Below are positions 13,945 through 51,035 of a stretch of DNA of 64,000 bases, piece after piece (the stretch's first letter is position 1; each line of letters starts with the position of its first letter). The position numbers and the translations under genes are program-made. The DNA comes from a virus. The stretch spans positions 32,001 through 96,000 of the IMG/VR virus record IMGVR_UViG_3300036760_000327; one strand, given 5' to 3'. The notes under the pieces were generated by a model. That model was not told the origin of the DNA and searched no databases. It saw only the letters and a program-made list of their open reading frames with translations.

Positions 13945-13951
13945 CTTTCCT

Positions 13952-14815: not shown

Positions 14816-14816
14816 T

Positions 14817-16930: not shown

Positions 16931-17421
16931 TTTACTGCCCTTAAAATAAAGACTATATTATAAATTATATTTAAATAATGTTTTTTAGCAAATTCTAATT
17001 CTTTACCGGATAATTTTTGTCCCTCTGGTGTCAGGGTTTCAATTAATTGGACTAGATCAAATTTTCCAGTGTAAGTATAATGTGGAACTTGTTTTTGTCG
17101 GCAATCAAGATACTCATAGGTTCTGTGAGTCCAATACTTTTTATGTGTTGGATCTCTAAAGGCTGATTCGCAACCCCAATACGGCACTTGTATTTCAACC
17201 AAAGCTCCAGGCATACAAACGCGATAAATTTCTCCCATAATCCTTAAGGGGTTATCCACATGTTCAAAAAAGTAAATAGCTCTTACTGCTGCTACACTAT
17301 TGTCCTCAAAGGGTAAATCTTCATTTTCTAAATCACATATAATCTCAGCTGGTGGAAGTTTATCTACCCCAATCCATCCTGGTAAACATTGATTTCCACA
17401 ACCAATATCTAATTTAATCAT
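16927..17421 (-). CDS. Class I SAM methyltransferase (type 11-like)
   Basis: LDIGCG, LPFEDNSV, FEHV, EIYRVC.PG, DPTH. Confidence 0.88.
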   Translation of the reverse strand: MIKLDIGCGNQCLPGWIGVDKLPPAEIICDLENEDLPFEDNSVAAVRAIYFFEHVDNPLRIMGEIYRVCMPGALVEIQVPYWGCESAFRDPTHKKYWTHRTYEYLDCRQKQVPHYTYTGKFDLVQLIETLTPEGQKLSGKELEFAKKHYLNIIYNIVFILRAVK

Positions 17422-17544
17422 AAACGCACCATTTACATCCTATAGGATTATGTTTAGTAATAATATTTAAACGTATTAACACATGTTCAAAAAAGTCGCA
17501 AAAGTCTTTACCCTGGGATAATAAAGCATTAATTTCTTTTTCCG

Positions 17545-18921: not shown

Positions 18922-18923
18922 AA

Positions 18924-19793: not shown

Positions 19794-20335
19794 TTTATAC
19801 CCCGCACATAAATTTTTAATTGAATAAAGTCTTCTGGCGTAATTCCTTTAGCTTTTAATTCTACATCTTCTCGTAACATATCTAGTTGCTCCAAAGCTAC
19901 ATCTTTAACATTCGAAAATCCAACACTTTTTAATTCTTCTATTATCATACTTGGCCATAATAAAGACCGATGGTAATCATACGGAGTTTGTCCTTGACCG
20001 AGTATATTATATATAACATAGGAATAATATTTACCTTGGTGAAGTAAATGAACAGAACCTTCAAAATTGGGACAGGTAATAAATAATGTTCCGTTAGGAA
20101 CTAAAACTCTATAACATTCTTTTAAAAGTCTATAAATATCAGGTAATTCCAGATGTTCTATAAATTCTACTGATACAATATTGTCTATGGATTCATCTTT
20201 ATATGGAATTCCTTTTCTTAAATCCCAGATAATATCTACATTTGGATGTTCAATAATATCAATACCAATATAATCTTTATACTGATTATATCTATTCTTT
20301 AAAGGATTTATACCGCATCCAAGATCAAGATTCAT
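19790..20335 (-). CDS. Class I SAM methyltransferase (type 11-like)
   Basis: LDLGCG, WDLRKGIPY, FIEHL, ECYRVL.PNG. Confidence 0.88.
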   Translation of the reverse strand: MNLDLGCGINPLKNRYNQYKDYIGIDIIEHPNVDIIWDLRKGIPYKDESIDNIVSVEFIEHLELPDIYRLLKECYRVLVPNGTLFITCPNFEGSVHLLHQGKYYSYVIYNILGQGQTPYDYHRSLLWPSMIIEELKSVGFSNVKDVALEQLDMLREDVELKAKGITPEDFIQLKIYVRGIK

Positions 20336-22503
20336 ATTAATACCTCTAAGTATTTTTTAATCATAATTTCGGCTGTATAAGTATCCTGTATTTTTTTTAA
20401 TAATCCTTTTCTTATTGACTGTATAAATTCTTTGTCCTCTAATTGTACTTCAAAGATATATCGCAAATCATCTATTGTGTCAAATCCAAAAACTAAATCT
20501 TCTCCAAACATTTCGGGAACTACGTTACATTTTTTATTATAAATTATTGGACATTGACAAGCTGCTGCCTCGAGCGCTGTATTACTACATCCTTCATGTT
20601 CGCTAAGAAACAACATAGCATCTGTTGATCTATATAAATTTACTAATTGTTTTGGCGCTTTAACCGGCCCATAATACATAATATTAGGTAATTGTGAAAA
20701 TAATTCCATTGTTTTAGCCGTATCTAAACTAAAATAATTACCCACTAAATGAAAATCTATATTAGGATATTGTTTAGCAATTCCTTCAATTAAATCAGCA
20801 CGTTTGTGTGGAAATATACTCCAAGAATTTATTAAGATTTTTGTTTTATTACCTGGCAAAGAAATATGTGGTCCACTGGTATTAAAAATTTCTGTATCCA
20901 CGCCATTATAAATTACTACACTTTTCTTCGTAGTATCTACATAAGGCTCCCATACTTTCTTTGCAAATTCGGATTGCCATACAATTAAATCTGCTAGTTC
21001 ATAATTATCCTTCATTACTTTCAGTGCACATTCTTGTATCTCTCCTGGTTTCTGCCCAGAGTTATCTCCGAGGTACGAGACAAAGGGTAAACCATCCATT
21101 CGTTCTATAAATTTTATGCTTGGATCTCGCTTTTTGGCCGCTTGCAGAATTTCAGCATTTAAAAATGCTATCGAAAGTATATATTTAACTGCTGGTGAAT
21201 CTTGATCCACAATCTTATATTTATTATTGGTTAATCTAGGTATATATTTTTTTAATGTATTTCCAAAAGTTCCAGGACCACCGTCTGAGATTGCTGTTAA
21301 TATTCCGATACTATTATCTATTTCTTTATAATTTCCCATAATGGCATCACGATATAATGGATACCTTATTTTAATATCATAATTTTCTTCAATATCTTCT
21401 CTGGCCTGTAATCCGATTTTCGTGGATTCTATAGGATTTGCTTTACAATACAATATCTTATCCAGAAACTCATCTGCCGAACGAACAATAAATCCAGTTT
21501 TTCCATCTTGAATTGCTTCAGTATATGATCGACTAGGAGAAGAAATAATCGGTATTTTAGCCGCTCCGGCCATTGTATATTTTACTGCACTTTTAGAATC
21601 GAGCCATGTACTTTGCCACATGGGCGGCACGAGATAATCAATATCTTTATTACTAACAGGATTAATTATAAGATTCACTGATTTGCATAAACGGTAATAA
21701 TCTTCGATAGATAGCCAATCTATATAGGTTTTATATAAATTTCTAAATCCATTAATAAGTGTGCGCATCTGGGCCACGCCATTAGCATTTATAATCCATT
21801 CAATATCTTTAAATTCTTCCCATCGTGCATTGGCCTTCTCGCACATTTCAAATAATAAAGTTGCTCCAACTCTACCGCTACTGGTCATTAAAACTTTATA
21901 TTTAGAAATTTGACTAATCCAATCTAATTTTGGCAGGTAATCAAAGATCGGTAAATTAATATGTGTAGGTACATGAATAACTGGCACAGCAAAATTAGAT
22001 AATTTTTTAAAGAAATCCTTTAATTCAGAAGTAGCCACAATAACAGCATCACACATATTTGCAATTTGTATTGGAGCGTTCTGATTAGCATTAACCAGAA
22101 AATCATCAATATAATAAACTATTCTTACGCCAAGTTGTTGTAAATGTTTAACAATTCTTGTTACATTATTAAGACCAATTTCCTGACCAAATTCAGAATT
22201 TGTACCAACTCTTACCAAGACAACCCATTTAGGCACAAATTGAATGATTTCTTGCATGCCTTTTTGTAATGTAAATACAATTTGATATCCTTCTTTTTCA
22301 AAGAATGGCACATATTCTTTAACAATTTTGTCGATACAACAGTCACTTTTAGGGCCCACGAAGCAAATGGTCTTATCTGTGATTTTGATATCTCGTGCAG
22401 CCATTACTTGAGGCGGGGCTGTCAGATTAACCTTACATACTGGCAACTTAACATTATTTGCCCAATAAGGTCTAGCTATTTTGCGTCGTCTATGTTCTCC
22501 CAT
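20332..22503 (-). CDS. Tandem double glycosyltransferase (two GT4-like modules)
   Basis: First module: YYIDD...KSAVKY..AGAAKIPIISS...DGKTGF. Second module: GGPGTF...VIYNGVD...EGCSNTALEAAAC. Confidence 0.85.
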   Translation of the reverse strand: MGEHRRRKIARPYWANNVKLPVCKVNLTAPPQVMAARDIKITDKTICFVGPKSDCCIDKIVKEYVPFFEKEGYQIVFTLQKGMQEIIQFVPKWVVLVRVGTNSEFGQEIGLNNVTRIVKHLQQLGVRIVYYIDDFLVNANQNAPIQIANMCDAVIVATSELKDFFKKLSNFAVPVIHVPTHINLPIFDYLPKLDWISQISKYKVLMTSSGRVGATLLFEMCEKANARWEEFKDIEWIINANGVAQMRTLINGFRNLYKTYIDWLSIEDYYRLCKSVNLIINPVSNKDIDYLVPPMWQSTWLDSKSAVKYTMAGAAKIPIISSPSRSYTEAIQDGKTGFIVRSADEFLDKILYCKANPIESTKIGLQAREDIEENYDIKIRYPLYRDAIMGNYKEIDNSIGILTAISDGGPGTFGNTLKKYIPRLTNNKYKIVDQDSPAVKYILSIAFLNAEILQAAKKRDPSIKFIERMDGLPFVSYLGDNSGQKPGEIQECALKVMKDNYELADLIVWQSEFAKKVWEPYVDTTKKSVVIYNGVDTEIFNTSGPHISLPGNKTKILINSWSIFPHKRADLIEGIAKQYPNIDFHLVGNYFSLDTAKTMELFSQLPNIMYYGPVKAPKQLVNLYRSTDAMLFLSEHEGCSNTALEAAACQCPIIYNKKCNVVPEMFGEDLVFGFDTIDDLRYIFEVQLEDKEFIQSIRKGLLKKIQDTYTAEIMIKKYLEVLI

Positions 22504-22514
22504 CTTATCTCCAG

Positions 22515-23666
22515 TTAAATATCGTTGATCCCATTAACAACTACCAGATTTTGTATTCTTTCGGCTTCTTCAAAATTCCACACTTTATCTTCGTATCCAG
22601 GCACTTTAAGATTAGTGCCCTTCAATTTATTATACATTTCATAAAAAATAGCCGCGTGTTCTGCTATATAAGTATTGATATTATGGTGTTCTAATACATA
22701 ATAATATGCTCGTTTTGCCATTGCCTCTCTTTTCTCTTTATTTTCAATAAGATATGAAATAGCACTAATCCAATCTTCTGATGCATTACTCTTTGGAATA
22801 ACTGCGCATTTCTTCTCGTCCCAACCAAGATAAGGCAATACGGGAGATAATATCATTGGTATCCCCAAAATTGCATATTCTAGAGCTTTTCTATTTGTTT
22901 TACCCCAATTAAAGGCATTATCTTGTAATGGCGCTATTCCGATATCCATATCCAATGATGCTAGTGCAGGATAGAAAGCATCTACCGGAACAAAATTATA
23001 GTACTCGTACTTATTTTTAGGCAAAGTAGCAATTGATGGCGGCAGCCATCCCATCATAATCCATTTGACTTGCGGATAATGTTTAGTAATTTTAGGAACT
23101 ACATCCTTAATTATATCGGCATCTGGCTTATGATGTGGGGTTAAATGCCATCCAATTCTCAAAGTATTCTCGTCGTTTTTATCCCTTCCTGGACTTACAA
23201 ATTCATTTAAATGAGATTCAACTAAATTTCGCTCTACAAACACGTTTTGATTAAATTTTAAAGCAAGTTTTTTTAAATAAGGCGTAGAAGTCGTAAGAAA
23301 ATCAACCTCTTTAAGAACTTGTTCATATCGCGCAAGAACTTGTGGTGTATAAACAGATTTGGCTGGATTATCTGTGGGTAAATGCCATACATCGTCATCT
23401 ACATTACTGCCAAGTATAATTTCTTTTTGTTTGATTTTTCGTATATACATAATAATTTCAGGAACATACTGACGCTGCATCATAAAAATATCTGCATTCT
23501 CGGCTAGCGCTTGATCTAAAGTATAAATTAATTTTCCCTGAAGCAAATTAAACTTATGAAAGTATTGCAATGGTAAGAATTGAACGTGGTAGTTCTAATT
23601 AGGGCCAGAATTATCAGCTCCCACAAATAGAACTTTTAATAATTTTTTCTGGTCCATCATTGGCAT
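22515..23666 (-). CDS. Glycosyltransferase (GT4-like) with an in-frame TAG at codon 24
   Basis: AAAAGGAGAGTG-ATG at 23666 gives MPMMDQKKLLKVLFVGADNSGPN*NYHVQFLPLQYF..., in frame with track ORF 22515-23570. Motifs VDDD, DIGIAPL, FNWGK, LEYAILGIP. Confidence 0.8.
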
Positions 23667-39291: not shown

Positions 39292-40908
39292 TTAAGAAAC
39301 TAGAGTCCTACCTTTTATAAGAAAATCTAATACAATTTTATGTATAGTTATTAATGCATTTAATTGATTAATTGATAATTTAAATTTAAAAGCTCTTCCA
39401 GGCAATGTAAAATCTAATCGTTTTTCCGCAATATCCTTATCAGCAGCAGTGGATGTAAATGTTATAGTCTTAGCTGCTGTAACGTCGTTCCAATCAGTAT
39501 ATACAGTAAGTGTAATCGTATATTCAGTAGCTCCGCTAGAATCTATGAATGCAGATGTTCTTAATATTCGTTTATTTCGGTCAGGATAGCCAATATCAAT
39601 CCAAGGACTAACCCAATAACTATTTATAGTGGCTCCCAAATCATTTTCACTTTCTCCAAATCTTTGAAGCTTACCATCGTAAGACCCAAATGCCAGAAAA
39701 GTATCCCCAGCGCCACCAGCTTCTCCAACTATCAGAGAATATGTTTCATATGCATTTGGAAAATCTATATACATTAAATTTGCGCCATACAATATGCTCG
39801 ACAAAGATGCTGCACTTACAGACCATTGAGTCCAATTTTTTACTGTTGGATCATAAATATATATTTTATTTTTCCGTTCGGATGAGCCCTCGGCTATGTT
39901 AAAGAAAATTTGTCCTTTCGTGTCAAAATTATCAGCTTCAAAAACGTGTATTTTGGATGAATTCATACGTTCTACCAATCGTTCGATCTTATCAGAAATC
40001 CTATAGGGAGGACTTGTACCATCGAAGGCATAAAATCCATCCGCCCCAATAAAATATAAAACTCCATCTTTTTCACATATGGCATTTGGTCCAACGCAAC
40101 CTACAGAATTATCTATCTTTTCCCAATCAAAAATTTGTGTTCCTCCCACATATTTAATGACATACGTTTTATATTTTTTAAACACGACAATTACATTTTT
40201 TAAAAGCCACATGGCTGTAATTACATCGCCTTCTTCACTATCTAAATCCATATAATTTGCGGCTGGCCATGTATCTTGATTTAAAGCATCATTCCATACC
40301 ACTCGATATCGGTATCGTATCCCGCCCACTAATACATTACCAGCAAATAAGTACGATCCCCACGCAGCAACTGTTTTTGCTCCAGAAGGATTGCCTGTTC
40401 CTAATATTGGAGCAATATAATCTCCTCCTGTATATACGGCCAGCGGAAGATTACCACCATAAGCCATTACCGCAGACCCTGCATAAGCCGTTATATCAAT
40501 CATATTATCAATTGACGGCGCCCAATTACTTAAAGCAGAACCTGACGCGGATACAGAAGCAAAAGTAGCCGAACCACCGGATACGGTTACTGTAGCAATA
40601 GCAGCAGATGCGGCGCCAGAAGTACATGAAAATACTAATGTAAATTCATTTGTGGATGCGCTCTGCCATTGATATATTCTAGTAATGGCAGAATCTTTCC
40701 ATGCGGTAGAATTTAAATTCTCTCTGCCTTGCATTTTATTTAATGCACCGCGAGTATAAAAATCCATGGCATTTATATCAGTAGCCGGACAGTCGGATAA
40801 ACGTACTTCTTGGCTACTAATACCTGGTTTAATATTAGCCAATCCCATACGAGTTATCGTATTTTCATCAACTAAACCTTGAGAGAATCCTTCAATAATT
40901 AATTTCAT
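39292..40908 (-). CDS. Tail nozzle/stabilisation protein (P22 gp10 / T7 gp12-like)
   Basis: Beta-propeller-like segments GDVITAM, VVFKK, VGCVGPNAI, YFIGADGFYAFDG, ISDKI. Confidence 0.7.
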   Translation of the reverse strand: MKLIIEGFSQGLVDENTITRMGLANIKPGISSQEVRLSDCPATDINAMDFYTRGALNKMQGRENLNSTAWKDSAITRIYQWQSASTNEFTLVFSCTSGAASAAIATVTVSGGSATFASVSASGSALSNWAPSIDNMIDITAYAGSAVMAYGGNLPLAVYTGGDYIAPILGTGNPSGAKTVAAWGSYLFAGNVLVGGIRYRYRVVWNDALNQDTWPAANYMDLDSEEGDVITAMWLLKNVIVVFKKYKTYVIKYVGGTQIFDWEKIDNSVGCVGPNAICEKDGVLYFIGADGFYAFDGTSPPYRISDKIERLVERMNSSKIHVFEADNFDTKGQIFFNIAEGSSERKNKIYIYDPTVKNWTQWSVSAASLSSILYGANLMYIDFPNAYETYSLIVGEAGGAGDTFLAFGSYDGKLQRFGESENDLGATINSYWVSPWIDIGYPDRNKRILRTSAFIDSSGATEYTITLTVYTDWNDVTAAKTITFTSTAADKDIAEKRLDFTLPGRAFKFKLSINQLNALITIHKIVLDFLIKGRTLVS

Positions 40909-40912
40909 AAAA

Positions 40913-42409
40913 TTACAGACAATCTACTGGCAAACGATGAATAGCCAAATAAGTAAATTGAGATGCCCCATAAAGTGTATCATCTATCATTGTTTTTGTA
41001 TAAGCAATTTTAATAGTATCTCCAGCAGATAAAAATATAATTGAAAAAATACTTCCTACTTGGTAAGATGCTATTCCAGGTTCTTTAATAGGACAATAAG
41101 TAGATTGATATAAATTATTATTCTTATAAATATGGACACCAATTACAGGTCTAGCAGGATACCAACTTAATGTCATATAACACTGGCTTATATCTGCCGA
41201 GCATCCAGTTGTTCCTTGCGCTGCCGTATAACCAAATCCTTGAATTCCCGATACTCCAGCAGCCGTCCATGGCAATCCAGTAGTCGGATCGTTTGCCCAT
41301 GTCTGATCATAATCTACAAAGGCAGTTGTCAATAAAGTTGTATCTCCAAAATAGTTAGTATTACTTTTGCGTAACACAGCCGCCGGTCTGGTGGTATCTT
41401 CGGAATAACAAACTTGATCACACGAGCATCCAGCAGAACCGTATACTGTAGCATTACAAGTACAACTAAAGGTATAGCATGTAAAATTACAAGAACATGC
41501 AGAGTAGCCATAACAAGTATTATTACAAGTACAACCACCGTAACCGTCCTGTGCATAACATGTATTATTACAGGAACATGCAGAATATCCATAACATGTA
41601 TTATAACAAGTACAACTTTCCCCGTAGCATGTATTGTTGCACGTACAACCTTCACCATAGCATGAAATATTACAAACGCATCCTCGTCGTCTGCTTCTAA
41701 ATCTTACGGATACATAAGTAGCCCCAGAATCTCCTGGTAACGTTGGCAGCGCACCACTAAACGTATCTGTGCTTCCGCTGGTTTGCGTAACATTTAAATC
41801 TGTATCAATAGCTGTTGGATATTCATCAATATTTTGATAATTTTCGGCCGCGCCACTTGGCGACCATGAATATGTGCCTAATCGTCCTGTTGCGGATGTA
41901 ATTCCTGTATCCGTTTGAGTTCCAGAGGCAACCATTGAAGCTTGCGCAATAACTATATAATATCCCGACGCCTTTGCCGTAAATATTCCTGTAGCATTAT
42001 CATATTCATTTAAAGTATCATAATCTTCGGTATCATAAATTAAGGTCTGAGCTGATGCGCCGGCTGTTACACTAGCGCCGCTAGACGCGTAAGCTCGTAC
42101 CCGTGACCAATAATTTGATCCTATATCATTCCAGGATGCGCCATCATATCTGCGTAATATCCCGACAGTTGTATCATATGAAAGCGCTCCAGATAGTGGG
42201 GAAGAACCCGTTAATTCGGCGGTTGTCCCTTCACCCACAATGCCTACAATTCCCAATTGATGCGCTCCTGATGTTGTATTCATTGACAAAGGACTATAAT
42301 GCTCTAATTCATACGCATCTTCAATTGCATCCAGATTGTCTTGTACAACCGCAGGTATATCTTTTATTTTATGTTCTGAATTTGGAAAAGTTTTTTGCCA
42401 ACTTCCCAT
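40913..42409 (-). CDS. C1q-like tail-associated protein with an inserted Cys/Tyr repeat cassette
   Basis: C1q-like strands (YDTEDYD..NEYDNATGIFTA..SGYY; IFLSAGDTI; YLAIHRL). N-terminus shared with two paralogs. Eight Cys repeats. Confidence 0.7.
   Translation of the reverse strand: MGSWQKTFPNSEHKIKDIPAVVQDNLDAIEDAYELEHYSPLSMNTTSGAHQLGIVGIVGEGTTAELTGSSPLSGALSYDTTVGILRRYDGASWNDIGSNYWSRVRAYASSGASVTAGASAQTLIYDTEDYDTLNEYDNATGIFTAKASGYYIVIAQASMVASGTQTDTGITSATGRLGTYSWSPSGAAENYQNIDEYPTAIDTDLNVTQTSGSTDTFSGALPTLPGDSGATYVSVRFRSRRRGCVCNISCYGEGCTCNNTCYGESCTCYNTCYGYSACSCNNTCYAQDGYGGCTCNNTCYGYSACSCNFTCYTFSCTCNATVYGSAGCSCDQVCYSEDTTRPAAVLRKSNTNYFGDTTLLTTAFVDYDQTWANDPTTGLPWTAAGVSGIQGFGYTAAQGTTGCSADISQCYMTLSWYPARPVIGVHIYKNNNLYQSTYCPIKEPGIASYQVGSIFSIIFLSAGDTIKIAYTKTMIDDTLYGASQFTYLAIHRLPVDCL
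41405..41680 (-). repeat. Eight tandem peptide repeats C-x-C-[N/D/Y]-x-x-C-Y (92 aa, 23 Cys)
   Basis: CVCNISCYGEG/CTCNNTCYGES/CTCYNTCYGYSA/CSCNNTCYAQDGYGG/CTCNNTCYGYSA/CSCNFTCYTFS/CTCNATVYGSAG/CSCDQVCY. Confidence 0.95.
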
Positions 42410-42417
42410 ATATTTCC

Positions 42418-43137
42418 TTACGACAGGCGATAAATGTGAATAAAATTTCTATCGCTGCCGCCTTCTAAGACAATACTTGTAGTTCTATTATGCCAAACCC
42501 AAGTTTTAATTTTATCCCCAGCCGACAAAGAGAATAAAACCGTGGTGCCTGTTGAAATCTCATCTGCTGATAATGTATATTTTAAATATGTACTATTATT
42601 AATTAATGCATCACTTGAATTATATTGCGCTATTTGTACTCCTATTTCAATTCCTCCAATAGCCGTAAAACTTGCCACTAGTCTAACATAGTAAAATCCA
42701 GCGGTTTTAGCAACAAAAACATAAGATGAAGCATCGTATTCACTTAATGTATCAAATTGTTCTGTATCAAAGGGTATAACTGCCGTAGTTCCGGTTGTGA
42801 CTAAATAATCAGTATTTCGATACGCGCTTACTTGACTATGCGCCAATAAATTAATCTGCTGCCAAGTACTGCCATCATATACTTTATGCATTCCTAAAGT
42901 CGTATCTTGATATAACGCTCCCGTGGCGGGTAGTGTTACTGCCGTTATAGCTGATGTTGCTGCTGATCCCATTGCTGGAGTTATACCAGGTTTATGTCTG
43001 CCAGAGAGTACATCAGTAAAAGTATAATGTTCTACGCCTAGAATATTCTCTATTGCGTTCCAATTATCGCCATATATTGTAGGAATATCTACAATATAAG
43101 ATCCAGTAACTGGGACTGTCTTTGACCAACCACCCAT
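42418..43137 (-). CDS. C1q-like tail-associated protein (paralog 2)
   Basis: MGGWSK..P...DNWNAIE...EH; IPFDTEQFD...YD...F.A..AGFY; LSAGDKI. Confidence 0.7.
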   Translation of the reverse strand: MGGWSKTVPVTGSYIVDIPTIYGDNWNAIENILGVEHYTFTDVLSGRHKPGITPAMGSAATSAITAVTLPATGALYQDTTLGMHKVYDGSTWQQINLLAHSQVSAYRNTDYLVTTGTTAVIPFDTEQFDTLSEYDASSYVFVAKTAGFYYVRLVASFTAIGGIEIGVQIAQYNSSDALINNSTYLKYTLSADEISTGTTVLFSLSAGDKIKTWVWHNRTTSIVLEGGSDRNFIHIYRLS

Positions 43138-43139
43138 TC

Positions 43140-43853
43140 CTAGCTTAACCTCATGATATGGATATTCCCGCCCACAATATCAACTGAAGATGTGTGTTCA
43201 TGATAACATGCTAATACTATATAATCTCCAGCAGCTAAGGATAAAATATCATTGACTTCAGTAGTAACTATTGACGCACCATGAAGAACAGATTTCGTAG
43301 TTAAAACACCGTTTTTGCCAATACCAACACCTTTTGTATAATTATCAGTCGTTACGGGAAATTTCGCCGCGCCTTTAACAAAATATGTCCCAGCCTGTGT
43401 GGCCGTAAATCGAAATGTAGTTGCATTCCATTCTCCAAGTGTGTCATAAGTGCCTGAAACAGTTGCCGAAGAGGCGCTCATAGTAGTCCATGCTGTCGTA
43501 GGAATAGTTTGGGTTCCAAATCCCTGTCGGATTCTAGAATATTTATTACTAGTTAACCGCACCCAACTAGTTCCGTTATACCGCAAAAGCTGGCCATTAG
43601 TTGTATCATATCCTATTGCTCCAGTGCCTGGCGATGTTAAAGCTGTAATGGCAGAATTAGCCGCGGTTATAAGAACTCCAAACTTGCCAAAAGTATGAGT
43701 GCCACTACCACCACTAGTAAAAGTACTATGCTCTACGTTCCACCAATCTTCTAGAGCCTCCCAATTATCCCTAACATTTTCGGTAGGATCTGTATGAGCA
43801 GAGCCACTTACTGAAGTGCTTGCTAAAGGAAAAAGCTTATTCCATCCCGACAT
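43140..43853 (-). CDS. C1q-like tail-associated protein (paralog 1)
   Basis: MSGWNK..P...DNWEALE...EH; YDTLGEWN...FTATQAGTY; LAAGDYI. Confidence 0.7.
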   Translation of the reverse strand: MSGWNKLFPLASTSVSGSAHTDPTENVRDNWEALEDWWNVEHSTFTSGGSGTHTFGKFGVLITAANSAITALTSPGTGAIGYDTTNGQLLRYNGTSWVRLTSNKYSRIRQGFGTQTIPTTAWTTMSASSATVSGTYDTLGEWNATTFRFTATQAGTYFVKGAAKFPVTTDNYTKGVGIGKNGVLTTKSVLHGASIVTTEVNDILSLAAGDYIVLACYHEHTSSVDIVGGNIHIMRLS

Positions 43854-44820
43854 ATCTATCCTTAATTTTTATTAACTTAGGAAATAACTTTTTAAATTCA
43901 TTACAAAATGGAGTTTTTTTATCGTATGTACCATATGCTAACTTACGCGTGTAAGGACAACCAGCCTGGCAAAGAGTGATCCACTCGCAACCTTGACATT
44001 CAAGAATATTTTTTGCACTCCAACGTTGGTGCATCTTTAATTCTTTCCAGTGTTTGTGTGTATAAATTGAACCTATTTTTGTATCTAAATCTGCATTGCA
44101 ACTTCTTAATGTTCCATCTGGATCAATAACAGCAAGCCATTTACCACAACTGTAACAATTTTTAGGACTCTGCCATGTTGGATAGGTTGACTCGATGATC
44201 CAGTTCGGCCACATTGGTTTTGGTGCTGTAAGTATTAAATCTAAAACTTTATCCATTTGCCTTCCATATTCTTTAACATATTCAGGATCTTTTCCTCCAT
44301 TATATAAACGATTTATCCGAATATGTCCATTATGTTTAATAATTAATTTTGTAAGATCTACAATACGAGGCAGATTCATTTCATCCAGAACTACTGCCAA
44401 ACTACATCCGTGACAAAAGTACTTAATATATTCGATCTTTTTTTCTACAATATCCAAATTATCATAAGTAGGATTTAACATGATATAAATCTGATGCTTT
44501 TTGCATTCCTTAAGGACATCCTCTGACAAATAATCTCCGTTAGTAAATACTAAAAATTGCCCATCTAGATATGCTTTAACATGTTCAGGCAACCTTGCCT
44601 GCAATGCATTGATAAAAAAGAAAACAGTATCAATGGCTATAAATGGTTCACCTCCTAAGAAATTAACTCTTAGGGATTTAACGTTTTCCTCTTTACATAT
44701 ATCCACTATCCAGTTCGCACTATCCAGCGCAACTTGAGGAGACATCGCGCTTTCACCGTGTGGCCAATAACAATATGGACACACACGATTACAATTATTT
44801 GTAATATAAACAAAAATCAT
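43837..44820 (-). CDS. Radical SAM/SPASM-domain enzyme
   Basis: CNRVCPYC, FLGGEP, TNG; SPASM cysteines CYSCG...RSC...CQGC..ITLCQAGCP...FC. Confidence 0.9.
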   Translation of the reverse strand: MIFVYITNNCNRVCPYCYWPHGESAMSPQVALDSANWIVDICKEENVKSLRVNFLGGEPFIAIDTVFFFINALQARLPEHVKAYLDGQFLVFTNGDYLSEDVLKECKKHQIYIMLNPTYDNLDIVEKKIEYIKYFCHGCSLAVVLDEMNLPRIVDLTKLIIKHNGHIRINRLYNGGKDPEYVKEYGRQMDKVLDLILTAPKPMWPNWIIESTYPTWQSPKNCYSCGKWLAVIDPDGTLRSCNADLDTKIGSIYTHKHWKELKMHQRWSAKNILECQGCEWITLCQAGCPYTRKLAYGTYDKKTPFCNEFKKLFPKLIKIKDRYVGME

Positions 44821-45521
44821 TAAAGCGTCGATTGAAAATCCCTCACTTGCTGTGCGGCCTTATTCATCTCTGACAGCCACTGTTCAATCTTATTTTCAGA
44901 ACGACCAGGAACAGCCATCATATATTTTTTTAAATCCATATTTTTATATATATCGCCATTTATTTCGATTAAAATATAAGGATAACTCAAAACATTAAAC
45001 CTTTTTTTAATTAGAATATATTTTTGGACATTTATCCCGTCGCTTTCAAATCTTGGACTAGCGCATGTAAGCATATCTCTATTGATTGCGTCCATAAAAA
45101 ATTCTGAGTTATTTTTAACCGGCACATAACAATATAAATTATTACCCATGCCAGACATAAAAATAATATGTAATAGATCAGCTATCGCATATCTAGAATA
45201 TTTTGTATGAATATACTCTTTCCGCACTAATTTAAAATAATAAAAATCGTTATTAGAATAACCATCGGGATTGTCTAAAAATTCCATAAGTACGATACTA
45301 CAAATATTAGAATCATTCTTTTTTACTCTAACACAATATTGCCTGCTCATTCTTTTACCCTTAGGAATATATCCCCCAATTTTATTAAGAACTATTTGGC
45401 ACGGGTCATGTTCAAAATAATATTTGACTTTATTACTTTCTTTTTCAGGAATATCGTGTATATCTATATAATGAACTCCTGTCATATAACATCCACCAGG
45501 AGGTAATAACCTATCATACAT
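44820..45521 (-). CDS. Hypothetical protein, possibly GNAT-like fold
   Basis: KLVRKEYIHTKYSRYAIADLL weakly resembles GNAT motif A. Confidence 0.4.
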   Translation of the reverse strand: MYDRLLPPGGCYMTGVHYIDIHDIPEKESNKVKYYFEHDPCQIVLNKIGGYIPKGKRMSRQYCVRVKKNDSNICSIVLMEFLDNPDGYSNNDFYYFKLVRKEYIHTKYSRYAIADLLHIIFMSGMGNNLYCYVPVKNNSEFFMDAINRDMLTCASPRFESDGINVQKYILIKKRFNVLSYPYILIEINGDIYKNMDLKKYMMAVPGRSENKIEQWLSEMNKAAQQVRDFQSTL

Positions 45522-46149
45522 AAAATTTATATTTCCTGCATGTTCCTAGATCTATAATTTGATTTGGTATAGGCATATTTGAATCCGTATAATTAACTGG
45601 CAATATTTGATATATTTCTTTCTTATTTAAGTAATTAAAACAAAAGGTTAAAAATTCTTTACTGCATTCTTGCATAATATTATCATTTCTTAGAGTTACT
45701 GGGCGATACCACAAAGCCTTGTCTCGATAATGAAATAAAATTTCCTTTGAAACCGCCTGCCCATCATAAATAATATACCAAGAATCTGCTGCATCATAAA
45801 CAACATCATCAACTAAAAAAGATAACAAATAATCCGTAGACGCGTGATCTTCTTTAAAATCCATTCTAGTTTGTCTGCTGGCCGCTACAAAACTCAATAT
45901 CTCTATGTTCCCGTTTTTATATCTTATATTTGGAACTTCCGTATCTATTGTAATTTGACCCGAAACATATCTTTTAATCATATCCTCAATAGAATAATTA
46001 TCTAGAGATAAGGCAGTATATTTATTAACTAATTCAATCCAAGGAGTAATTGTAATTAAACTAATATTATCTTCTTCCAATGCAGGAATAGGATAATTAA
46101 TATTTTTTCTTAGACGTAACGAATTAGCAAATGGATAAAGTCTTGGCAT
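45514..46149 (-). CDS. Hypothetical protein, possibly GNAT-like C-terminus
   Basis: ECSKEFLTFCFNYLNKKEIY resembles the RimJ/L-type helix; weak match. Confidence 0.35.
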   Translation of the reverse strand: MPRLYPFANSLRLRKNINYPIPALEEDNISLITITPWIELVNKYTALSLDNYSIEDMIKRYVSGQITIDTEVPNIRYKNGNIEILSFVAASRQTRMDFKEDHASTDYLLSFLVDDVVYDAADSWYIIYDGQAVSKEILFHYRDKALWYRPVTLRNDNIMQECSKEFLTFCFNYLNKKEIYQILPVNYTDSNMPIPNQIIDLGTCRKYKFYV

Positions 46150-46154
46150 AATTT

Positions 46155-46949
46155 TTAATTATAATAATCAACCTCTTCAACAATTGATGTTCCACGATCT
46201 GTCAAAAACTCGAATAGTACCATTTCCAGTCGTCCTGGTACCATTCCTCCTTCATATACTGCAACAGCTTTTATATTCCAAGGTTTACTACTATAAGCAC
46301 TATTTAACTCGGCTATCAAATCATGATTTTTACCAGGTTTAAAATAAGGTTTTGCGCCATCTATAACAGAACGTAACCGATTAATATGTGCATTACAAAA
46401 AGATGGCAAATAATCAAGAGAACCTTGTTCTTTAATTTTATTCTCTTTATTTTTAATTATTTTAGAATAAATTTTTACTTCCGGACCGCCGATCAATTTC
46501 CGAACTGAATTTTGAAAGAACGATACTAATTCTGGACCTCTTACATATACATCGCTTCTGGAAATGGTTGAATGTGTAAAAGCAAATAATCCCATTAAAA
46601 GTACGGTAGCTCTCCATTTATATTCGTCTAAAAGTAAGGCATCATTATAAAGCGACACTAGAGCACTAGCCTTTTTGTACATAGCCGCTCTTTGTGGTTC
46701 TGGAATTGGTTGAACATTTACTTCTTCCATTGGAACATTTATTTTATTAATATCCTTATACATTTTTGGCGATACTGGTTGAGGAATAAACGGGCCCCCA
46801 TGCGTGAGGTGTTGCCTCCAATTTCTTGCATCCTTAATAACTTTAATAATTGGATTGCCTGGAAATTCCTTAGCAAAATTAATTACTTGTAAATGTCCAT
46901 TATGTAATCCTGATACATGATCTGCTATAGGTATTATTACTCTGCTCAT
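46155..46949 (-). CDS. HxGH nucleotidyltransferase-superfamily protein, divergent pantothenate-synthetase-like
   Basis: SGLHNGHLQVINFAKE near the N-terminus. Length and C-terminal GRLE are reminiscent of PanC. Confidence 0.5.
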   Translation of the reverse strand: MSRVIIPIADHVSGLHNGHLQVINFAKEFPGNPIIKVIKDARNWRQHLTHGGPFIPQPVSPKMYKDINKINVPMEEVNVQPIPEPQRAAMYKKASALVSLYNDALLLDEYKWRATVLLMGLFAFTHSTISRSDVYVRGPELVSFFQNSVRKLIGGPEVKIYSKIIKNKENKIKEQGSLDYLPSFCNAHINRLRSVIDGAKPYFKPGKNHDLIAELNSAYSSKPWNIKAVAVYEGGMVPGRLEMVLFEFLTDRGTSIVEEVDYYN

Positions 46950-48196
46950 TTAATTTTTTTCTCTAATACAGCGATCCTATTATTCAAATCTGATACCAAT
47001 AAAGCTAAAGTTTCTACAGTTATTTGAGGATGATTAGTTGGCCCAGTATAATTTGCATTATAACAATCACAACTAAATCTTTCGCCTTGATATGGCATGC
47101 AACTTACATCCTTTGTATTTTCCACCATTCTCTCTTTATAATATTGGGATACTCTTTTTTGCATCTCAACATATCTACATACCTGAAAATAAGGTTTAGT
47201 AATATCTTTATTAAAATCCCAGTTTACCATATAGCACCCGCCCCAGCACGGACTTGTTCCCCAGCATCCCTTACCTTTACATTCAGGCTCAAAATTAATA
47301 AATTTCTCCCGAATTTCTGGTTTAGTAATCCCTTGGTCAATATGTCCTAAACATAATTCTTGTTCTATAAAAGGTCGATTATCATTAAATTTTTCGGCAC
47401 GATGACAACTAAAAATATATCCCTCATGATTAATATGACAATAATTACGACCACTTCCGCAGGGCCAGCGGCTATTATCTGGACCAATATAGGATTTAAA
47501 ATGTTCTATTTCAACCTTTCTTCCTTTTAATTTAAGTTCTGCCATATAATCTACAACTTGTTTACATTGATTTTCCCATATATTCCATTTTTCTTCTGTC
47601 CAATTTGATTCGTAGACAGGCGAAAACATTAAATAATTACATCCAAGATCAAAAATATATTTACAATCTTCATAAAAATGATCTATTCTTTCAGCAAAAG
47701 GAGACATCCGTACTCTATAAAAGGGCCACTTGTTTAATATTTGCTTTAAATTTTTTTCTACAATTGCATGAGATCCAAAACCTTGTTTTGTCTTTCTATG
47801 ATAATCATGTGTTTCTTTTGTCCCGTCAAAACTGATCATAAAAAATATTTTATGTTCGTCTAAGAAAGAAAAACGCTCTGGAACTAACAAAGTTCCATTA
47901 GTTGTGCCTCCAAATTGAATAGGAATAGCTGTTCTTTTCGACATGTCTTCTGCATATAGTGTAATATCTTTTAATAAATCCCACTTTAATAAAGGCTCGC
48001 CCCCCCAAAAAGAAATTTCAACTTGTCGTTCATTTTCATCCGCCAATAAAGCATTAGTAAATAACCATTCTATTGCTTTAAACGCTATTTCTTTGGACAT
48101 ATCCCCTTCTGTGCAACCATAAGTAAAGCACGGATAAGTACACCTAAGATTACACGAACGAGTTAAATTAAAAGAAGCCCGAGTTAAATTATACAT
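46946..48196 (-). CDS. Radical SAM/SPASM-domain enzyme with atypical Cx3Cx3C motif
   Basis: CNLRCTYPC, FWGGEPLL, TTNGTL, ISFDG; SPASM CGSG...FSCH...CKGKGC...CWGGC...C. Confidence 0.9.
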   Translation of the reverse strand: MYNLTRASFNLTRSCNLRCTYPCFTYGCTEGDMSKEIAFKAIEWLFTNALLADENERQVEISFWGGEPLLKWDLLKDITLYAEDMSKRTAIPIQFGGTTNGTLLVPERFSFLDEHKIFFMISFDGTKETHDYHRKTKQGFGSHAIVEKNLKQILNKWPFYRVRMSPFAERIDHFYEDCKYIFDLGCNYLMFSPVYESNWTEEKWNIWENQCKQVVDYMAELKLKGRKVEIEHFKSYIGPDNSRWPCGSGRNYCHINHEGYIFSCHRAEKFNDNRPFIEQELCLGHIDQGITKPEIREKFINFEPECKGKGCWGTSPCWGGCYMVNWDFNKDITKPYFQVCRYVEMQKRVSQYYKERMVENTKDVSCMPYQGERFSCDCYNANYTGPTNHPQITVETLALLVSDLNNRIAVLEKKIK

Positions 48197-49294: not shown

Positions 49295-50008
49295 TTAATT
49301 ATTCATCTTGGTAATTCGTTTAAATTGTTCTACATTAAAATCTTTATAGGATTTCATTCGTACCATTACATCACTAGATTTCCTATCCTTTTCTCGTTTT
49401 ATCATTCGTTGAATCTCACTAGCATATACTCCAGCAAATTTTTGTGCTTTAGCATCATCCTCTAAGTATATAGCCCCACGTAAAACAGCCCCAAATATTA
49501 CAGCCTCAGTATGAAATGTGGATATATAATCATACTCGGCATCCAATGTCCAATCCGCTGGATTAGCATAATATTTTATAGTAAGGGTATAAGTAGCATC
49601 AGGAATAGGATATAAATCAAATTCCATACCTCGATCAATATAATAATCCGGTTCCCCTGTTTCAGATGAGCTCGTAGTAAATAATTTCTCTGGAGAACTA
49701 TCTGTAGATGCAATATCCGAATCACTACCATGAATTGAATCAAACTCATTTGGCAATATTCTAATTAATTTTTTAGTCCCAAGAAATATATTCAAATGAC
49801 CTAGATAGTCGGAAGGCAGTGCATATCTTGCAGTGCTGGCTGATACGGTAGCAGTAGATTCAGTGTATAAATAATTAAAATTATATTCTCCCGCCAGCGC
49901 TCTTCGTGCATCATTGATCCACTGCCCGATTTCGGTATCTATGTCTGTCCGATTGTCCAAATAGGATTTAACTCTGGTTTTTATAGTTCCAAAATCATTA
50001 AAACTCAC
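49295..50008 (-). CDS. Head-tail adaptor / tail tubular protein A-like
   Basis: WINDA, RYALPSDY, GEPDYY, LYPIPDATY. Confidence 0.7.
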   Translation of the reverse strand: MSFNDFGTIKTRVKSYLDNRTDIDTEIGQWINDARRALAGEYNFNYLYTESTATVSASTARYALPSDYLGHLNIFLGTKKLIRILPNEFDSIHGSDSDIASTDSSPEKLFTTSSSETGEPDYYIDRGMEFDLYPIPDATYTLTIKYYANPADWTLDAEYDYISTFHTEAVIFGAVLRGAIYLEDDAKAQKFAGVYASEIQRMIKREKDRKSSDVMVRMKSYKDFNVEQFKRITKMNN

Positions 50009-50645: not shown

Positions 50646-51035
50646 TCACTCACCCATATCATCTCTTTTTAAGAGGTTTAGGCGCGTTTTTAATGGTTGT
50701 ACATAATCTTTAGGATCGTTGGTTGTGAATTTAAATTCTTGAAATTCGATACCAACTTCTGCCTGGTCCCTTTTGATAATCAAATGTGGAAGCATAATTT
50801 TTAATAGTCTATATGCTTGTTCATCTTTCCATTTTGCCCTAAATTGTCCCCCAGAAATTCTACCAATAATAGCATCAAACATTTGTAAGAATTTCATAAG
50901 TTCCGTATATTTAGAGGTGATCCATACATATAATGATGAATCAGATAAATTTTTCTTGTCTACAATTATCTTGATGCTCCCATGAATATCAAAAATTCCT
51001 GCCGTATAAGCAATTTCGGATCTATTGTACCTCAT
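50646..51035 (-). CDS. Free-standing LAGLIDADG endonuclease (degenerate motif)
   Basis: IAYTAGIFDIHGSI; LKIMLPHLIIKRDQA. Confidence 0.7.
   Translation of the reverse strand: MRYNRSEIAYTAGIFDIHGSIKIIVDKKNLSDSSLYVWITSKYTELMKFLQMFDAIIGRISGGQFRAKWKDEQAYRLLKIMLPHLIIKRDQAEVGIEFQEFKFTTNDPKDYVQPLKTRLNLLKRDDMGE

What the first reader, a model, noticed from the sequence alone, without database searches (positions are those of the whole stretch)
40913..48196. Candidate RiPP-like virion maturation system: two radical SAM/SPASM enzymes next to a tail protein with eight CxC[N/D/Y]xxCY repeats
Seen in sequence: five enzyme-like genes sit inside the structural operon, between the adaptor (49295-50008) and the nozzle (39292-40908). 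They are rSAM/SPASM 46946-48196, an HxGH protein, two possible GNAT-like proteins and rSAM/SPASM 43837-44820. They are tightly coupled to three paralogous C1q-like genes. The last of these has a 92-aa cassette (41405-41680) of eight Cys/Tyr repeats, preceded by RSRRRG and inserted into an otherwise Cys-poor protein. Five repeats contain N-x-x-C and one contains D-x-x-C. Established: SPASM-domain rSAM enzymes install thioether cross-links on Cys-rich substrates (ranthipeptide maturases, QhpD, and NxxcB, which links Cys to the Asn beta-carbon in an NxxC motif) or form aromatic cyclophanes. Inference: the phage enzymatically staples a domain of a virion fibre or spike instead of making a free peptide, perhaps as a substitute for disulfides in a reducing, anaerobic cytoplasm. 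I know of no characterised example.
Basis: partly seen in the sequence, partly recalled or inferred. Interest (0 to 1): 0.92.

Follow-up and report, generated by a model that had tools for sequence, protein, structure and literature searches.

The report
Radical-SAM enzymes for cysteine-repeat tail proteins
A sediment phage, like at least nine other uncultured phages, keeps peptide-cross-linking radical-SAM enzymes together with a cysteine-rich 12-residue repeat built into its tail proteins, so these viruses probably staple part of their own tail covalently, which I found described in no paper.

Summary

The enzyme-repeat link holds up in other phages. A DNA scan for the motif alone found ten real arrays in IMG/VR, all on contigs that also carry one of the two enzyme families. 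The arrays sit in unrelated carriers: a C1q-like fibre, a J-like central tail fibre, a baseplate-associated protein and small all-repeat proteins.

The system splits into two modules:
- rSAM1 (closest to PapB, CteB and QhpD thioether enzymes, no RRE) with a PanC-fold ligase-like protein.
- A GNAT-fold protein with the orphan SPASM enzyme rSAM2.

One complete phage genome has only the first module and another only the second. Tyrosine at unit position 8 is kept only where the second module is present (one genome of each kind).

Best reading (about 0.6): enzymatic covalent cross-linking, most likely by thioethers, of a repeat array that stays in the tail. The chemistry is untested, and the roles of the PanC-like and GNAT-like proteins are unknown.

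The closest precedents are CrpC/CrpA (2026) and QhpD/QHNDH; none involves a virus particle. This scan has noted analogous phage radical-SAM/cysteine-repeat fibre systems on other DNA.

The parts
46946..48196 (-). rSAM1: radical SAM/SPASM enzyme (416 aa) without an N-terminal RRE. Its closest relatives are the PapB, SCIFF-maturase (CteB) and QhpD thioether-forming enzymes. In this phage the cluster motif is CX3CX3C because of a one-residue Pro insertion.
   Evidence: Pfam Radical_SAM 37.8 bits. NCBIfam PapB family E 4.9e-61 over model positions 6-330 of 330, but 207 bits against a 340 cut-off. CteB 5WGG E 2e-29, aligned from CteB residue 101. The Pro insertion is unique among 7 homologues, and 7 SPASM Cys are conserved.
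47045..47101 (-). C-terminal tail of rSAM1 carrying a repeat-like unit (…C-x-C-Y-N-x-N-Y…), a possible pseudo-substrate or docking element.
   Evidence: Such units are present after the SPASM domain in 5 of 7 aligned rSAM1 homologues and in the G005 enzyme.
46155..46949 (-). HxGH protein (264 aa) with a pantothenate-synthetase (PanC) two-domain fold; a putative ATP-dependent adenylate-forming ligase. It is translationally coupled to rSAM1.
   Evidence: AF2 model pLDDT 95.9. The Foldseek top 50 are all PanC, E from 3e-9. VIA Z 16.7 and 15.9 for PanC against 8.1 for the next fold. The family has 69 representative clusters. No Pfam hit.
45514..46149 (-). Orphan ORF (211 aa) specific to this phage. 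It is not part of the conserved cassette.
   Evidence: No Pfam, PHROG or NCBIfam hit. Unrelated to the GNAT-like family. Absent from L001, L002, L004 and L017.
44820..45521 (-). X: GNAT-fold protein (233 aa), always immediately upstream of rSAM2.
   Evidence: AF2 pLDDT 86. Foldseek matches to GNAT acetyltransferases at E 3e-6. VIA Z 10-12. X-rSAM2 adjacency seen in 9 of 9 loci.
43837..44820 (-). rSAM2: radical SAM/SPASM enzyme (327 aa), an orphan family without an RRE.
   Evidence: Pfam Radical_SAM 33.8 bits. SPASM model TIGR04085 42.3 bits against a cut-off of 27, with the best named family reaching only E 2e-18. Canonical CX3CX2C and CX2CX5CX3C motifs.
43140..43853 (-). C1q-like tail-fibre paralogue 1 (237 aa).
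   Evidence: phrog_35360 tail fibre, E 5.5e-7. Shares its N-terminal module with the other two paralogues.
42418..43137 (-). C1q-like tail-fibre paralogue 2 (239 aa).
   Evidence: BclA_C E 3e-5 and C1q E 8e-4, both below the cut-off. phrog_13286 tail protein.
40913..42409 (-). Carrier: C1q-like tail protein (498 aa). Its jelly-roll domain is split by an insertion of about 265 residues that holds the repeat array.
   Evidence: Pfam C1q 23.9 bits against a 23.7 cut-off. Alignment with the paralogues. Homologues of 736 and 621 aa carry 28 and about 17 units.
41405..41680 (-). Repeat array: eight units of C-[ST]-C-[N/D]-x-[TS]-C-Y with a period of 11-15 residues; the proposed substrate.
   Evidence: At the DNA level it is a diverged 33-bp tandem repeat.

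Best explanation
The repeat array C-[S/T]-C-[N>D,E]-x-[T/S]-C-Y (period 11-12 residues) is the substrate of the phage's own radical SAM/SPASM enzymes. They install covalent intramolecular cross-links while the array remains part of a tail protein.

Proposed course (inferred): the tail protein is made in the host cytoplasm. rSAM1, a leader-independent relative of the PapB, CteB and QhpD thioether synthases, abstracts a hydrogen from an acceptor side chain in each unit and joins it to a cysteine sulfur. Candidate geometries are C1-x-x-N/D4, N4-x-x-C7 and C1-x4-T6. rSAM2, together with the GNAT-fold protein X, makes a second kind of link that depends on Tyr8.

The product would be a non-reducible, protease-resistant rod or knob on the fibre or tail tip. 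Its length would be set by the number of units, which ranges from 4 to 28.

The system has two separable modules: rSAM1 with a PanC-fold ligase-like protein, and X with rSAM2. The PanC-like protein probably performs an ATP-dependent adenylation or ligation step, and X an acyl transfer or substrate presentation. Both roles are guesses.

My sub-probabilities: the array is the rSAM substrate, about 0.8. The rSAM1 product is a thioether, given that, about 0.7. The modified array stays in the virion, about 0.75.
For: Shown here:
- Forward test. Every relative of the cassette with enough flanking DNA has an array in a structural protein: the window, L001 (28 units), L002 (about 17), L004/L005 and L017 (4 units each in a J-like central tail fibre, phrog_31 E 5e-35).
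- Reverse test. A scan of IMG/VR for two motif units, blind to the enzymes, gave 13 stretches. Three are out-of-frame chance hits from one sequence family. All 10 genuine arrays lie on contigs with an rSAM1- or rSAM2-family gene.
- The carriers are unrelated proteins from podo-, sipho- and contractile-type tail modules, plus small all-repeat proteins placed after fibre genes. The only constant partners of the array are the SPASM enzymes.
- Minimal systems exist in genomes rated complete. G005 has an array and rSAM1 only. G006 has an array, X and rSAM2 only.
- Tyr at unit position 8 is found in 2 of 12 units in G005, 16 of 16 in G006 and 51 of 56 in two-enzyme loci.
- rSAM1's best named relatives are all Cys cross-linking maturases: PapB E 5e-61, SCIFF 4e-42, QhpD 1e-40, and CteB structure 2e-29.
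- rSAM1 carries one or two repeat-like units in its own C-terminal tail.
- More distant phage relatives of rSAM1 sit beside classic Cys-rich precursors, SCIFF-like and CXXX-repeat.
- The array lies inside a split C1q-like domain.

Established elsewhere:
- SPASM enzymes make Cys-to-Thr (Cys32-Thr37, i.e. i to i+5) and Cys-to-Asp/Glu thioethers (PMC8172795).
- CrpC cross-links the 28.8-kDa repeat protein CrpA at C-x-x-Q/D motifs (PMC13692751).
Against: - No biochemical, proteomic or expression data exist for any member.
- Both enzymes fall far below every NCBIfam equivalog cut-off, so the reaction type cannot be transferred from a named family.
- PapB's strict Cys-X3-Asp motif is absent from the units.
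- Neither enzyme has an RRE and the carriers have no leader, so the mode of substrate recognition is unknown.
- In this phage rSAM1 has CX3CX3C instead of CX3CX2C, which could impair SAM-cluster binding.
- Three Cys per unit could equally bind metals or form disulfides after lysis.
- The Tyr8 covariation rests on one genome of each kind, and units within a protein are not independent.
- On contig G001 the rSAM1 gene lies outside the 14.6-kb locus that holds the carriers, so it is not their neighbour there.
Confidence: 0.6

Rival explanations
1. The enzymes do act on the array, but the chemistry is not thioether formation. Alternatives include C-C or C-O cyclophane-type links to Tyr, epimerisation, Cys oxidation to formylglycine or a dehydro form, or methylation-like edits.
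For: rSAM2 belongs to no named family. Its weak hits include the cyclophane-forming YhhB (E 2.8e-14), DynA and XyeB. Tyr8 is invariant only where X and rSAM2 are present. SPASM enzymes are chemically diverse, which is established knowledge.
Against: For rSAM1 the top three named relatives are all thioether synthases, at E values 20 or more orders of magnitude better than those of the cyclophane and sulfatase families. Three invariant Cys per unit are most simply explained as sulfur donors.
Confidence: 0.15
2. The arrays are unmodified structural or metal-binding modules: Zn or Fe-S sites, or a disulfide-braced solenoid formed after lysis. The rSAM enzymes would then act on something else, such as another protein, a small molecule or a host target.
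For: C-x-C and C-x3-C spacings are common in metal sites. A 12-residue period with Cys six residues apart recalls disulfide-braced beta-helical antifreeze proteins; that comparison is from memory and was not tested here. No modification has been measured.
Against: It does not explain why 10 of 10 genuine arrays co-occur with these two SPASM families across unrelated carriers and tail types. It also does not explain why rSAM1 carries a copy of the unit, or why Tyr8 tracks one enzyme module. No alternative Cys-rich or peptide substrate gene is conserved in the cassette.
Confidence: 0.1
3. The arrays are RiPP precursors that are cut out and released as free cross-linked peptides, for example a phage-encoded bacteriocin or signal. 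The structural proteins would serve only as carriers.
For: Small stand-alone all-repeat proteins of 97-284 aa exist. More distant phage relatives of the enzyme sit next to genuine small SCIFF-like peptides. The window protein has an Arg-rich stretch just before the array.
Against: The Arg-rich stretch is not conserved. In the C1q-like and J-like carriers the array is internal, and essential-looking domain segments follow it. No protease or exporter is conserved in the cassette. The small proteins sit directly after fibre-tip genes.
Confidence: 0.1
4. In this particular phage the system is partly decayed. rSAM1 would be inactive because of the Pro insertion in its SAM-cluster motif, leaving only the X-rSAM2 module working.
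For: CX3CX3C appears only in the window enzyme; six homologues have CX3CX2C. This phage also has the shortest array (8 units) of the three C1q-type carriers.
Against: The ORF is intact and well conserved overall (60% identity to the L001 enzyme), and all SPASM Cys are retained. Non-canonical cluster spacings are tolerated in some radical SAM enzymes, which is established knowledge.
Confidence: 0.05

Closest known systems
CrpC/CrpA of Methanococcus voltae (TIGR04463 family; PMC13692751, 2026)
   Same: A SPASM radical SAM enzyme encoded next to a protein, not a peptide, that carries tandem Cys-rich repeats. The repeats have a Cys followed by an acceptor three residues later (C-x-x-Q/D there, C-x-x-N/D here). 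Ranthionine cross-links were shown by mass spectrometry for CrpA.
   Different: CrpC has an RRE and CrpA a leader-like N-terminus; neither exists here. The similarity is weak: TIGR04463 scores 39.6 and 38.3 bits against a 525 cut-off. The repeat family differs (17 residues against 11-12). That system is cellular, not viral. It has no PanC-like or GNAT-like partner and no second rSAM.
PapB/PapA (freyrasin) ranthipeptide system
   Same: It is the best-scoring named family for rSAM1, with full-length alignment at E 5e-61. One enzyme processes many tandem Cys-containing motifs.
   Different: The score is 207 bits against a 340 cut-off. PapB needs Cys-X3-Asp strictly (PMC8172795), and that motif is absent from the units. 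PapA is a small peptide with a leader.
CteB/CteA and Tte1186/Tte1186a (SCIFF maturases)
   Same: CteB is the best solved-structure relative of rSAM1 (5WGG, E 2e-29), including the SPASM domain. Their Cys32-Thr37 link (i to i+5; PMC8172795) has the same spacing as C1 to T6 of the unit.
   Different: The N-terminal RRE, about 100 residues, is absent. The score is below the family cut-off (145 against 425 bits). The substrate is an internal array in a large protein.
QhpD/QhpC (quinohemoprotein amine dehydrogenase gamma subunit)
   Same: A SPASM enzyme makes Cys-to-Asp/Glu thioethers in a polypeptide that stays part of a protein complex. It is the third-best family for rSAM1 in G005 (E 6e-42).
   Different: The score is below the cut-off (140-144 against 453 bits). 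QhpC has single sites rather than tandem repeats. It is a periplasmic enzyme subunit, not a virion part.
Pantothenate synthetase PanC
   Same: The HxGH protein has the whole two-domain PanC fold (Z 16.7, 219 of 264 residues aligned) and the HxGH signature.
   Different: Identity is 11-13% and there is no Pfam Pantoate_ligase hit. The family is phage-only: nothing was found in 185,579 prokaryote species genomes with the patterns used. Its substrate is unknown.
HK97-type capsid chainmail (autocatalytic isopeptide cross-links)
   Same: Covalent cross-linking of a virion protein for stability. This comparison is from established knowledge and was not tested here.
   Different: That chemistry is autocatalytic, acts on the capsid and links Lys to Asn. 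Here dedicated radical enzymes are proposed to act on tail proteins.

Membership tests
Radical SAM superfamily (PF04055) | Profile score above the gathering threshold | tested here: met
   rSAM1 37.8 bits and rSAM2 33.8 bits against 29.5.
Radical SAM superfamily (PF04055) | CX3CX2C motif for the SAM-binding [4Fe-4S] cluster | tested here: inconclusive
   rSAM2 has C10-x3-C14-x2-C17. The window rSAM1 has C15-x3-C19-x3-C23 because of a Pro insertion, while six homologues are canonical.
SPASM subfamily | C-terminal seven-Cys domain for two auxiliary clusters | tested here: met
   rSAM2 scores 42.3 bits on TIGR04085 against 27, with CX2CX5CX3C at residues 275-288. rSAM1 aligns through the SPASM domains of CteB and PapB, and Cys 246, 264, 317, 321 and 340 are invariant, with two more conserved.
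PapB-family ranthipeptide maturase (NF047865) | Equivalog score of at least 340 bits | tested here: not met
   206.8 bits for rSAM1 and 66.9 bits for rSAM2.
PapB-family ranthipeptide maturase (NF047865) | Substrate motif Cys-X3-Asp | tested here: not met
   Unit position 5, four residues after C1, is N, A or S and never Asp in the listed counts. Position 7, four residues after C3, is Cys.
SCIFF maturase (TIGR03974; CteB) | Equivalog score of at least 425 bits and an N-terminal RRE | tested here: not met
   144.6 bits. The alignment starts at CteB residue 101, and rSAM1 has only 14 residues before its cluster motif.
Canonical RiPP pathway | Precursor with a leader recognised by an RRE, and a core released by proteolysis | tested here: not met
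   Neither enzyme has an RRE. The arrays are internal to tail proteins of 498-793 aa. No protease is conserved in the cassette. Release itself is not testable with these tools.
CrpC-type protein cross-linking rSAM (TIGR04463) | Equivalog score of at least 525 bits | tested here: not met
   39.6 and 38.3 bits; 76.9 bits for the G005 enzyme.
CrpC-type protein cross-linking rSAM (TIGR04463) | Cys-rich tandem-repeat protein encoded with the enzyme | tested here: met
   10 of 10 genuine arrays lie on contigs with the enzyme families.
Any thioether-forming rSAM system | Enzyme-dependent -2 Da per link with loss of free thiol | not testable with these tools
   Requires anaerobic co-expression and mass spectrometry.
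Pantothenate synthetase (PanC) | Two-domain PanC fold with an HxGH motif | tested here: met
   VIA Z 16.7 (rmsd 3.0, 219 residues aligned). The next non-PanC fold scores 8.1. H16 and H19 are nearly invariant to invariant in 55 sequences.
Pantothenate synthetase (PanC) | Sequence membership (Pfam Pantoate_ligase) | tested here: not met
   No Pfam family at E 0.1 or better. The profile search against PDB reaches PanC only at E 0.33-1.3, over the HxGH region.
GNAT acyltransferases | GNAT fold | tested here: met
   Foldseek probability 1.00, E 3e-6. VIA Z 10-12 over about 150-160 residues.
GNAT acyltransferases | Acyl-CoA pyrophosphate-binding loop (Q/R-x-x-G-x-G/A) | tested here: inconclusive
   By position in the model, the conserved loop after strand 4 reads Y-R-H-T-K-Y-S-R-Y and has no Gly. 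CoA binding was neither shown nor excluded. No Pfam hit.
C1q/TNF-like domain | Pfam C1q score above the threshold | tested here: met
   The carrier scores 23.9 bits against 23.7, over the N-terminal half of the domain only. Paralogue 2 scores 20.1 bits, below the cut-off.

The most novel reading that the evidence does not exclude
Tailed phages of several morphotypes share a mobile 'tail-hardening' kit. It consists of a tandem 12-residue Cys/Asn/Thr/Tyr array that can be inserted into any tail protein, plus two orthogonal leader-independent radical SAM/SPASM cross-linkers. Each cross-linker has its own non-RRE partner, a PanC-fold ligase and a GNAT-fold protein. Together they would convert the array into a doubly stapled, non-reducible rod. 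This would be the first enzyme-installed radical cross-link in a virus particle, and a new route of substrate recognition for RiPP-type enzymes.
Probability: 0.4. Interest if true: 0.9.

Novelty: new variant of a known kind. Interest (0 to 1): 0.8.

Why it matters
If the reading is right, some phages use radical chemistry to mature their own tail proteins after translation. The only covalent virion cross-links I know of are autocatalytic isopeptides and disulfides.

It would matter in four ways:
- It extends RiPP-type SPASM enzymology from peptides to domains embedded in large proteins, without a leader or RRE. That makes leader-independent recognition testable.
- It offers compact, portable staple tags (11-12 residues) with matching enzymes for protein engineering.
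- It gives a concrete hypothesis for how phages from anoxic sediments stabilise receptor-binding structures where disulfides cannot form.
- The split into two modules, and the two natural one-module genomes (G005 and G006), provide minimal systems ready for biochemistry.

Tried and rejected
- Co-fold of rSAM1 (residues 1-362, 7-row alignment) with residues 236-304 of the carrier, three 4Fe-4S clusters and SAM: no verdict. This is not evidence either way.
The genomic context of the roughly 60 further PanC-like family members, and of P0004-P0007, could not be read.
- The search for related loci with the broad PanC-like alignments A5 and A6 failed because no stretch was conserved enough. Single distant members P0052 and P0012 found nothing in IMG/VR.
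- Scans of 185,579 prokaryote species genomes with patterns from X and from the HxGH protein found no relative, so no host or prophage was identified.
- The sequencing-run search gave one DNA holder, a sediment metagenome that is probably the source sample. No RNA holder was listed.
- The repeat array matches no Pfam, NCBIfam or PDB sequence family.
- The carrier has no tblastn match among GenBank phage records.
- The idea that ORF 45514-46149 is a second GNAT-like protein was rejected.
- The idea that the window's B12-binding rSAM (17545-18921) is related to the third rSAM of L018 was rejected (BLASTP E 0.087).
- I first read G005 as lacking any HxGH protein. The gene next to its rSAM1 has an HxGH motif and weak similarity to the family's N-terminus (hhalign probability 38%), so absence cannot be claimed.
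- The N-x-T/S sequon inside the unit raised N-glycosylation as an idea. No glycosyltransferase travels with the cassette in the other loci, so I did not pursue it.
- Both structure-prediction jobs went on the two accessory proteins, so the carrier and the array itself were not folded.
- Literature searches for phage or virion radical-SAM cross-linking found nothing relevant.

Full report
**Observation**

The region 40913-48196 holds eight tightly packed minus-strand ORFs.
- rSAM1 (46946-48196) and rSAM2 (43837-44820) both pass the Pfam Radical_SAM threshold.
- rSAM2 passes the SPASM domain model. rSAM1 aligns end to end with the PapB-family model (E 4.9e-61, but 207 bits against a 340-bit cut-off).
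- rSAM1 also aligns with the CteB structure 5WGG (E 2e-29) from CteB residue 101 onward, so it lacks the RRE.
- The last of three C1q-like paralogues (40913-42409, 498 aa) carries eight units of C-x-C-N-x-T-C-Y at residues 244-335, which is nt 41405-41680. These 92 residues hold 23 of the protein's 27 Cys.
- The motif is absent from the other five reading frames of the window.
- At the DNA level the array is a diverged 33-36-bp tandem repeat.
- Alignment with the two paralogues places the array inside an insertion of about 265 residues that splits the C1q-like domain.
- The cassette lies in the structural operon, downstream of terminase and portal. It sits between proteins that match virion structural and tail PHROGs. 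A PDB match for the 'nozzle' candidate is to a chain present in six copies.

**The accessory genes**

- *HxGH protein (46155-46949).* It has no Pfam family. An exhaustive profile search found 69 representative clusters. With 55 of them the AlphaFold model reaches pLDDT 95.9. It has the complete two-domain pantothenate-synthetase fold. The Foldseek top 50 are all PanC. VIA gives Z 16.7 and 15.9 for PanC against 8.1 for the next fold.
- *Protein X (44820-45521).* It models at pLDDT 86 and has a GNAT fold. The loop where GNATs bind the CoA pyrophosphate has an unusual conserved sequence without glycine.
- *ORF 45514-46149.* It is unrelated to X and absent from all other loci, so the conserved cassette has four genes, not five.

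**Is the enzyme-repeat link real? Forward test**

- Relatives of rSAM1, the HxGH protein and X are very rare. X has 7 clusters in the word-indexed 5.8-billion-protein search. IMG/VR and JGI metagenomes hold only a handful of loci.
- Every locus with enough flanking DNA has an array. L001 has the same gene order and a 736-aa carrier with 28 units. L002 has a 621-aa carrier with about 17 units. L002 also has a second enzyme set next to a 97-aa Cys-rich ORF.
- L004/L005 and L017 are phages of a different type, with a tape-measure protein, a DUF2460 protein, a hub protein and an NlpC/P60 protein. There, four units sit in the N-terminal third of a J-like central tail fibre (phrog_31 E 5e-35; Pfam Phage-tail_3). 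The same four-gene cassette follows the fibre genes.

**Reverse test**

- I scanned IMG/VR for two consecutive units at the DNA level, with no reference to the enzymes. Of 13 stretches, three are out-of-frame hits from one sequence family.
- The other ten are genuine arrays. All lie on contigs that carry an rSAM1- or rSAM2-family gene.
- The new carriers are:
  - a 284-aa protein (G005);
  - a 204-aa protein made almost wholly of 16 units, placed directly after a fibre-tip gene (G006);
  - a 185-aa protein (G007);
  - two proteins of 793 and 362 aa that follow a baseplate wedge gene (G001; phrog_6);
  - another J-like protein (G008).
- The array therefore occurs in at least four unrelated carrier families and three tail types. 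Its only constant companions are these SPASM enzymes.
- More distant phage relatives of rSAM1 (under 30% identity) sit beside classic small Cys-rich precursors. One is a SCIFF-like peptide in MT835472, another a CXXX-repeat protein in MT835573. That fits the family's general habit of acting on a neighbouring Cys-rich sequence.

**Two modules**

- X is always immediately upstream of rSAM2, usually with overlapping stop and start codons. This holds in 9 of 9 loci.
- rSAM1 is followed by the PanC-like gene in 5 of 5 cassettes.
- G005 (69 kb, rated complete) has rSAM1 but no X or rSAM2. The gene next to its rSAM1 is a 300-aa protein with an HxGH motif and weak similarity to the family's N-terminus (hhalign probability 38%).
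- G006 (37.7 kb, rated complete) has X and rSAM2 but no rSAM1.
- Across 56 units from two-enzyme loci, the conservation by unit position is:

| Position | Residue(s) | Share of units |
|---|---|---|
| 1 | C | 100% |
| 2 | S/T | 88% |
| 3 | C | 100% |
| 4 | N / D / E | 79% / 14% / 2% |
| 6 | T/S | 86% |
| 7 | C | 88% |
| 8 | Y | 91% |

- In the rSAM1-only genome Tyr8 drops to 2 of 12 units, while C1, C3, N/D4 and C7 stay invariant. In the genome with only X and rSAM2, Tyr8 is 16 of 16.
- This suggests that Tyr8 serves the X-rSAM2 module. It rests on one genome of each kind, and the units within a protein are not independent, so it is a lead only.
- rSAM1 enzymes also carry one or two repeat-like units after their SPASM domain: 5 of 7 aligned homologues and the G005 enzyme. 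This is a second, independent tie between enzyme and motif.

**Mechanism (inferred)**

- rSAM1's nearest named relatives are all Cys-to-side-chain thioether synthases: PapB, the SCIFF maturase and QhpD.
- The unit offers three geometries with precedent:
  - C1-x-x-N/D4, like the C-x-x-Q/D of CrpA (PMC13692751);
  - C1-x4-T6, like Cys32-Thr37 of Tte1186a and CteA (PMC8172795);
The review PMC8172795 has no occurrence of 'NxxC', and I read no paper on NxxcB.
- PapB's strict Cys-X3-Asp motif is absent.
- I propose leader-independent, processive stapling of each unit by rSAM1, and a second Tyr8-dependent link by rSAM2 with X. The array would remain in the tail protein.
- The PanC-fold protein implies an ATP-dependent adenylation or ligation step, and X an acyl transfer or a substrate-presenting role. 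I cannot say which.
- The window's rSAM1 has CX3CX3C because of a Pro insertion that six homologues lack. Its activity here is an open point.
- The only run that holds this DNA is a sediment metagenome, probably the source sample itself. I did not test whether the habitat is anoxic or whether the host cytoplasm is reducing.

**Comparison with what is known, and novelty**

- The closest characterised systems are CrpC/CrpA (2026; a 28.8-kDa Cys-repeat protein with ranthionine links) and QhpD/QHNDH. PapB/PapA and CteB/CteA are the nearest relatives by sequence.
- Neither enzyme here reaches any equivalog cut-off. The RRE-leader logic is missing. The repeat has no Pfam, NCBIfam or PDB family. The PanC-like and GNAT-like partners have no counterpart in the systems I compared.
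- I found no paper describing radical-SAM modification of a virion protein.
- This scan's earlier notes report analogous phage rSAM/Cys-repeat fibre systems on other DNA. They also record a related genome with the same three C1q-like paralogues. Those are unchecked AI notes and I do not count them as evidence.
- I class the finding as a new variant of a known kind: SPASM maturation of Cys-rich repeats, here in a new biological setting.

**Limits**

- All evidence is comparative and structural prediction. No expression, proteomic or chemical data exist.
- The co-fold gave no verdict.
- No host was found.

Noticed in passing
window 12585-23570 (minus strand): A separate sugar- or small-molecule-modification block. 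It holds a DegT-like aminotransferase-looking ORF, a GNAT-looking ORF, three group-1 glycosyltransferases (15361-16245, 20332-22503, 22515-23570), several methyltransferases and a B12-binding radical SAM enzyme (17545-18921). It is not shared with the other cassette loci.
   Followed up: partly
L002:6661-6954 and L024:2912-3526: Small proteins made almost entirely of the repeat. They share the ends MGMP…C and …KYAPDVWL[FL]Y. Each is encoded directly after a homologous fibre-tip gene and before an X-rSAM2 pair. They may be a free-standing fibre cap or decoration.
   Followed up: partly
L022:4659-5690: In G005 a multi-pass membrane protein lies between the repeat protein and the enzyme genes. 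It has a weak MFS_1 match (E 6e-4, below the cut-off). An exporter here would favour a secreted product in that phage.
   Followed up: no
L018:1959-3227: A third radical SAM gene (422 aa; weak Radical_SAM hit, CxxxCxxC present) lies between rSAM2 and an rSAM1 paralogue on a 5.7-kb metagenome contig. It is unrelated to the window's B12-rSAM.
   Followed up: partly
L011:11405-11617; L013:10430-11020; L010:13423-13656: GenBank human-gut phage records (MT835472, MT835573, Phass-1) encode Cys-rich sequences next to distant relatives of rSAM1: a SCIFF-like peptide, a 197-aa CXXX-repeat protein and a small Cys-rich ORF. They look like phage-borne RiPP-type systems.
   Followed up: partly
L001:5416-7137 and L002:13798-14247, 2292-2675; window 50646-51035: LAGLIDADG-like ORFs are scattered through the structural operons of these phages. 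In L001 the capsid-like ORF continues into an endonuclease-like C-terminal part.
   Followed up: no
L024:4581-7577: A 998-aa tail fibre made of hundreds of G-Y-S-G-type collagen-like triplets lies just upstream of the all-repeat protein in G006.
   Followed up: no
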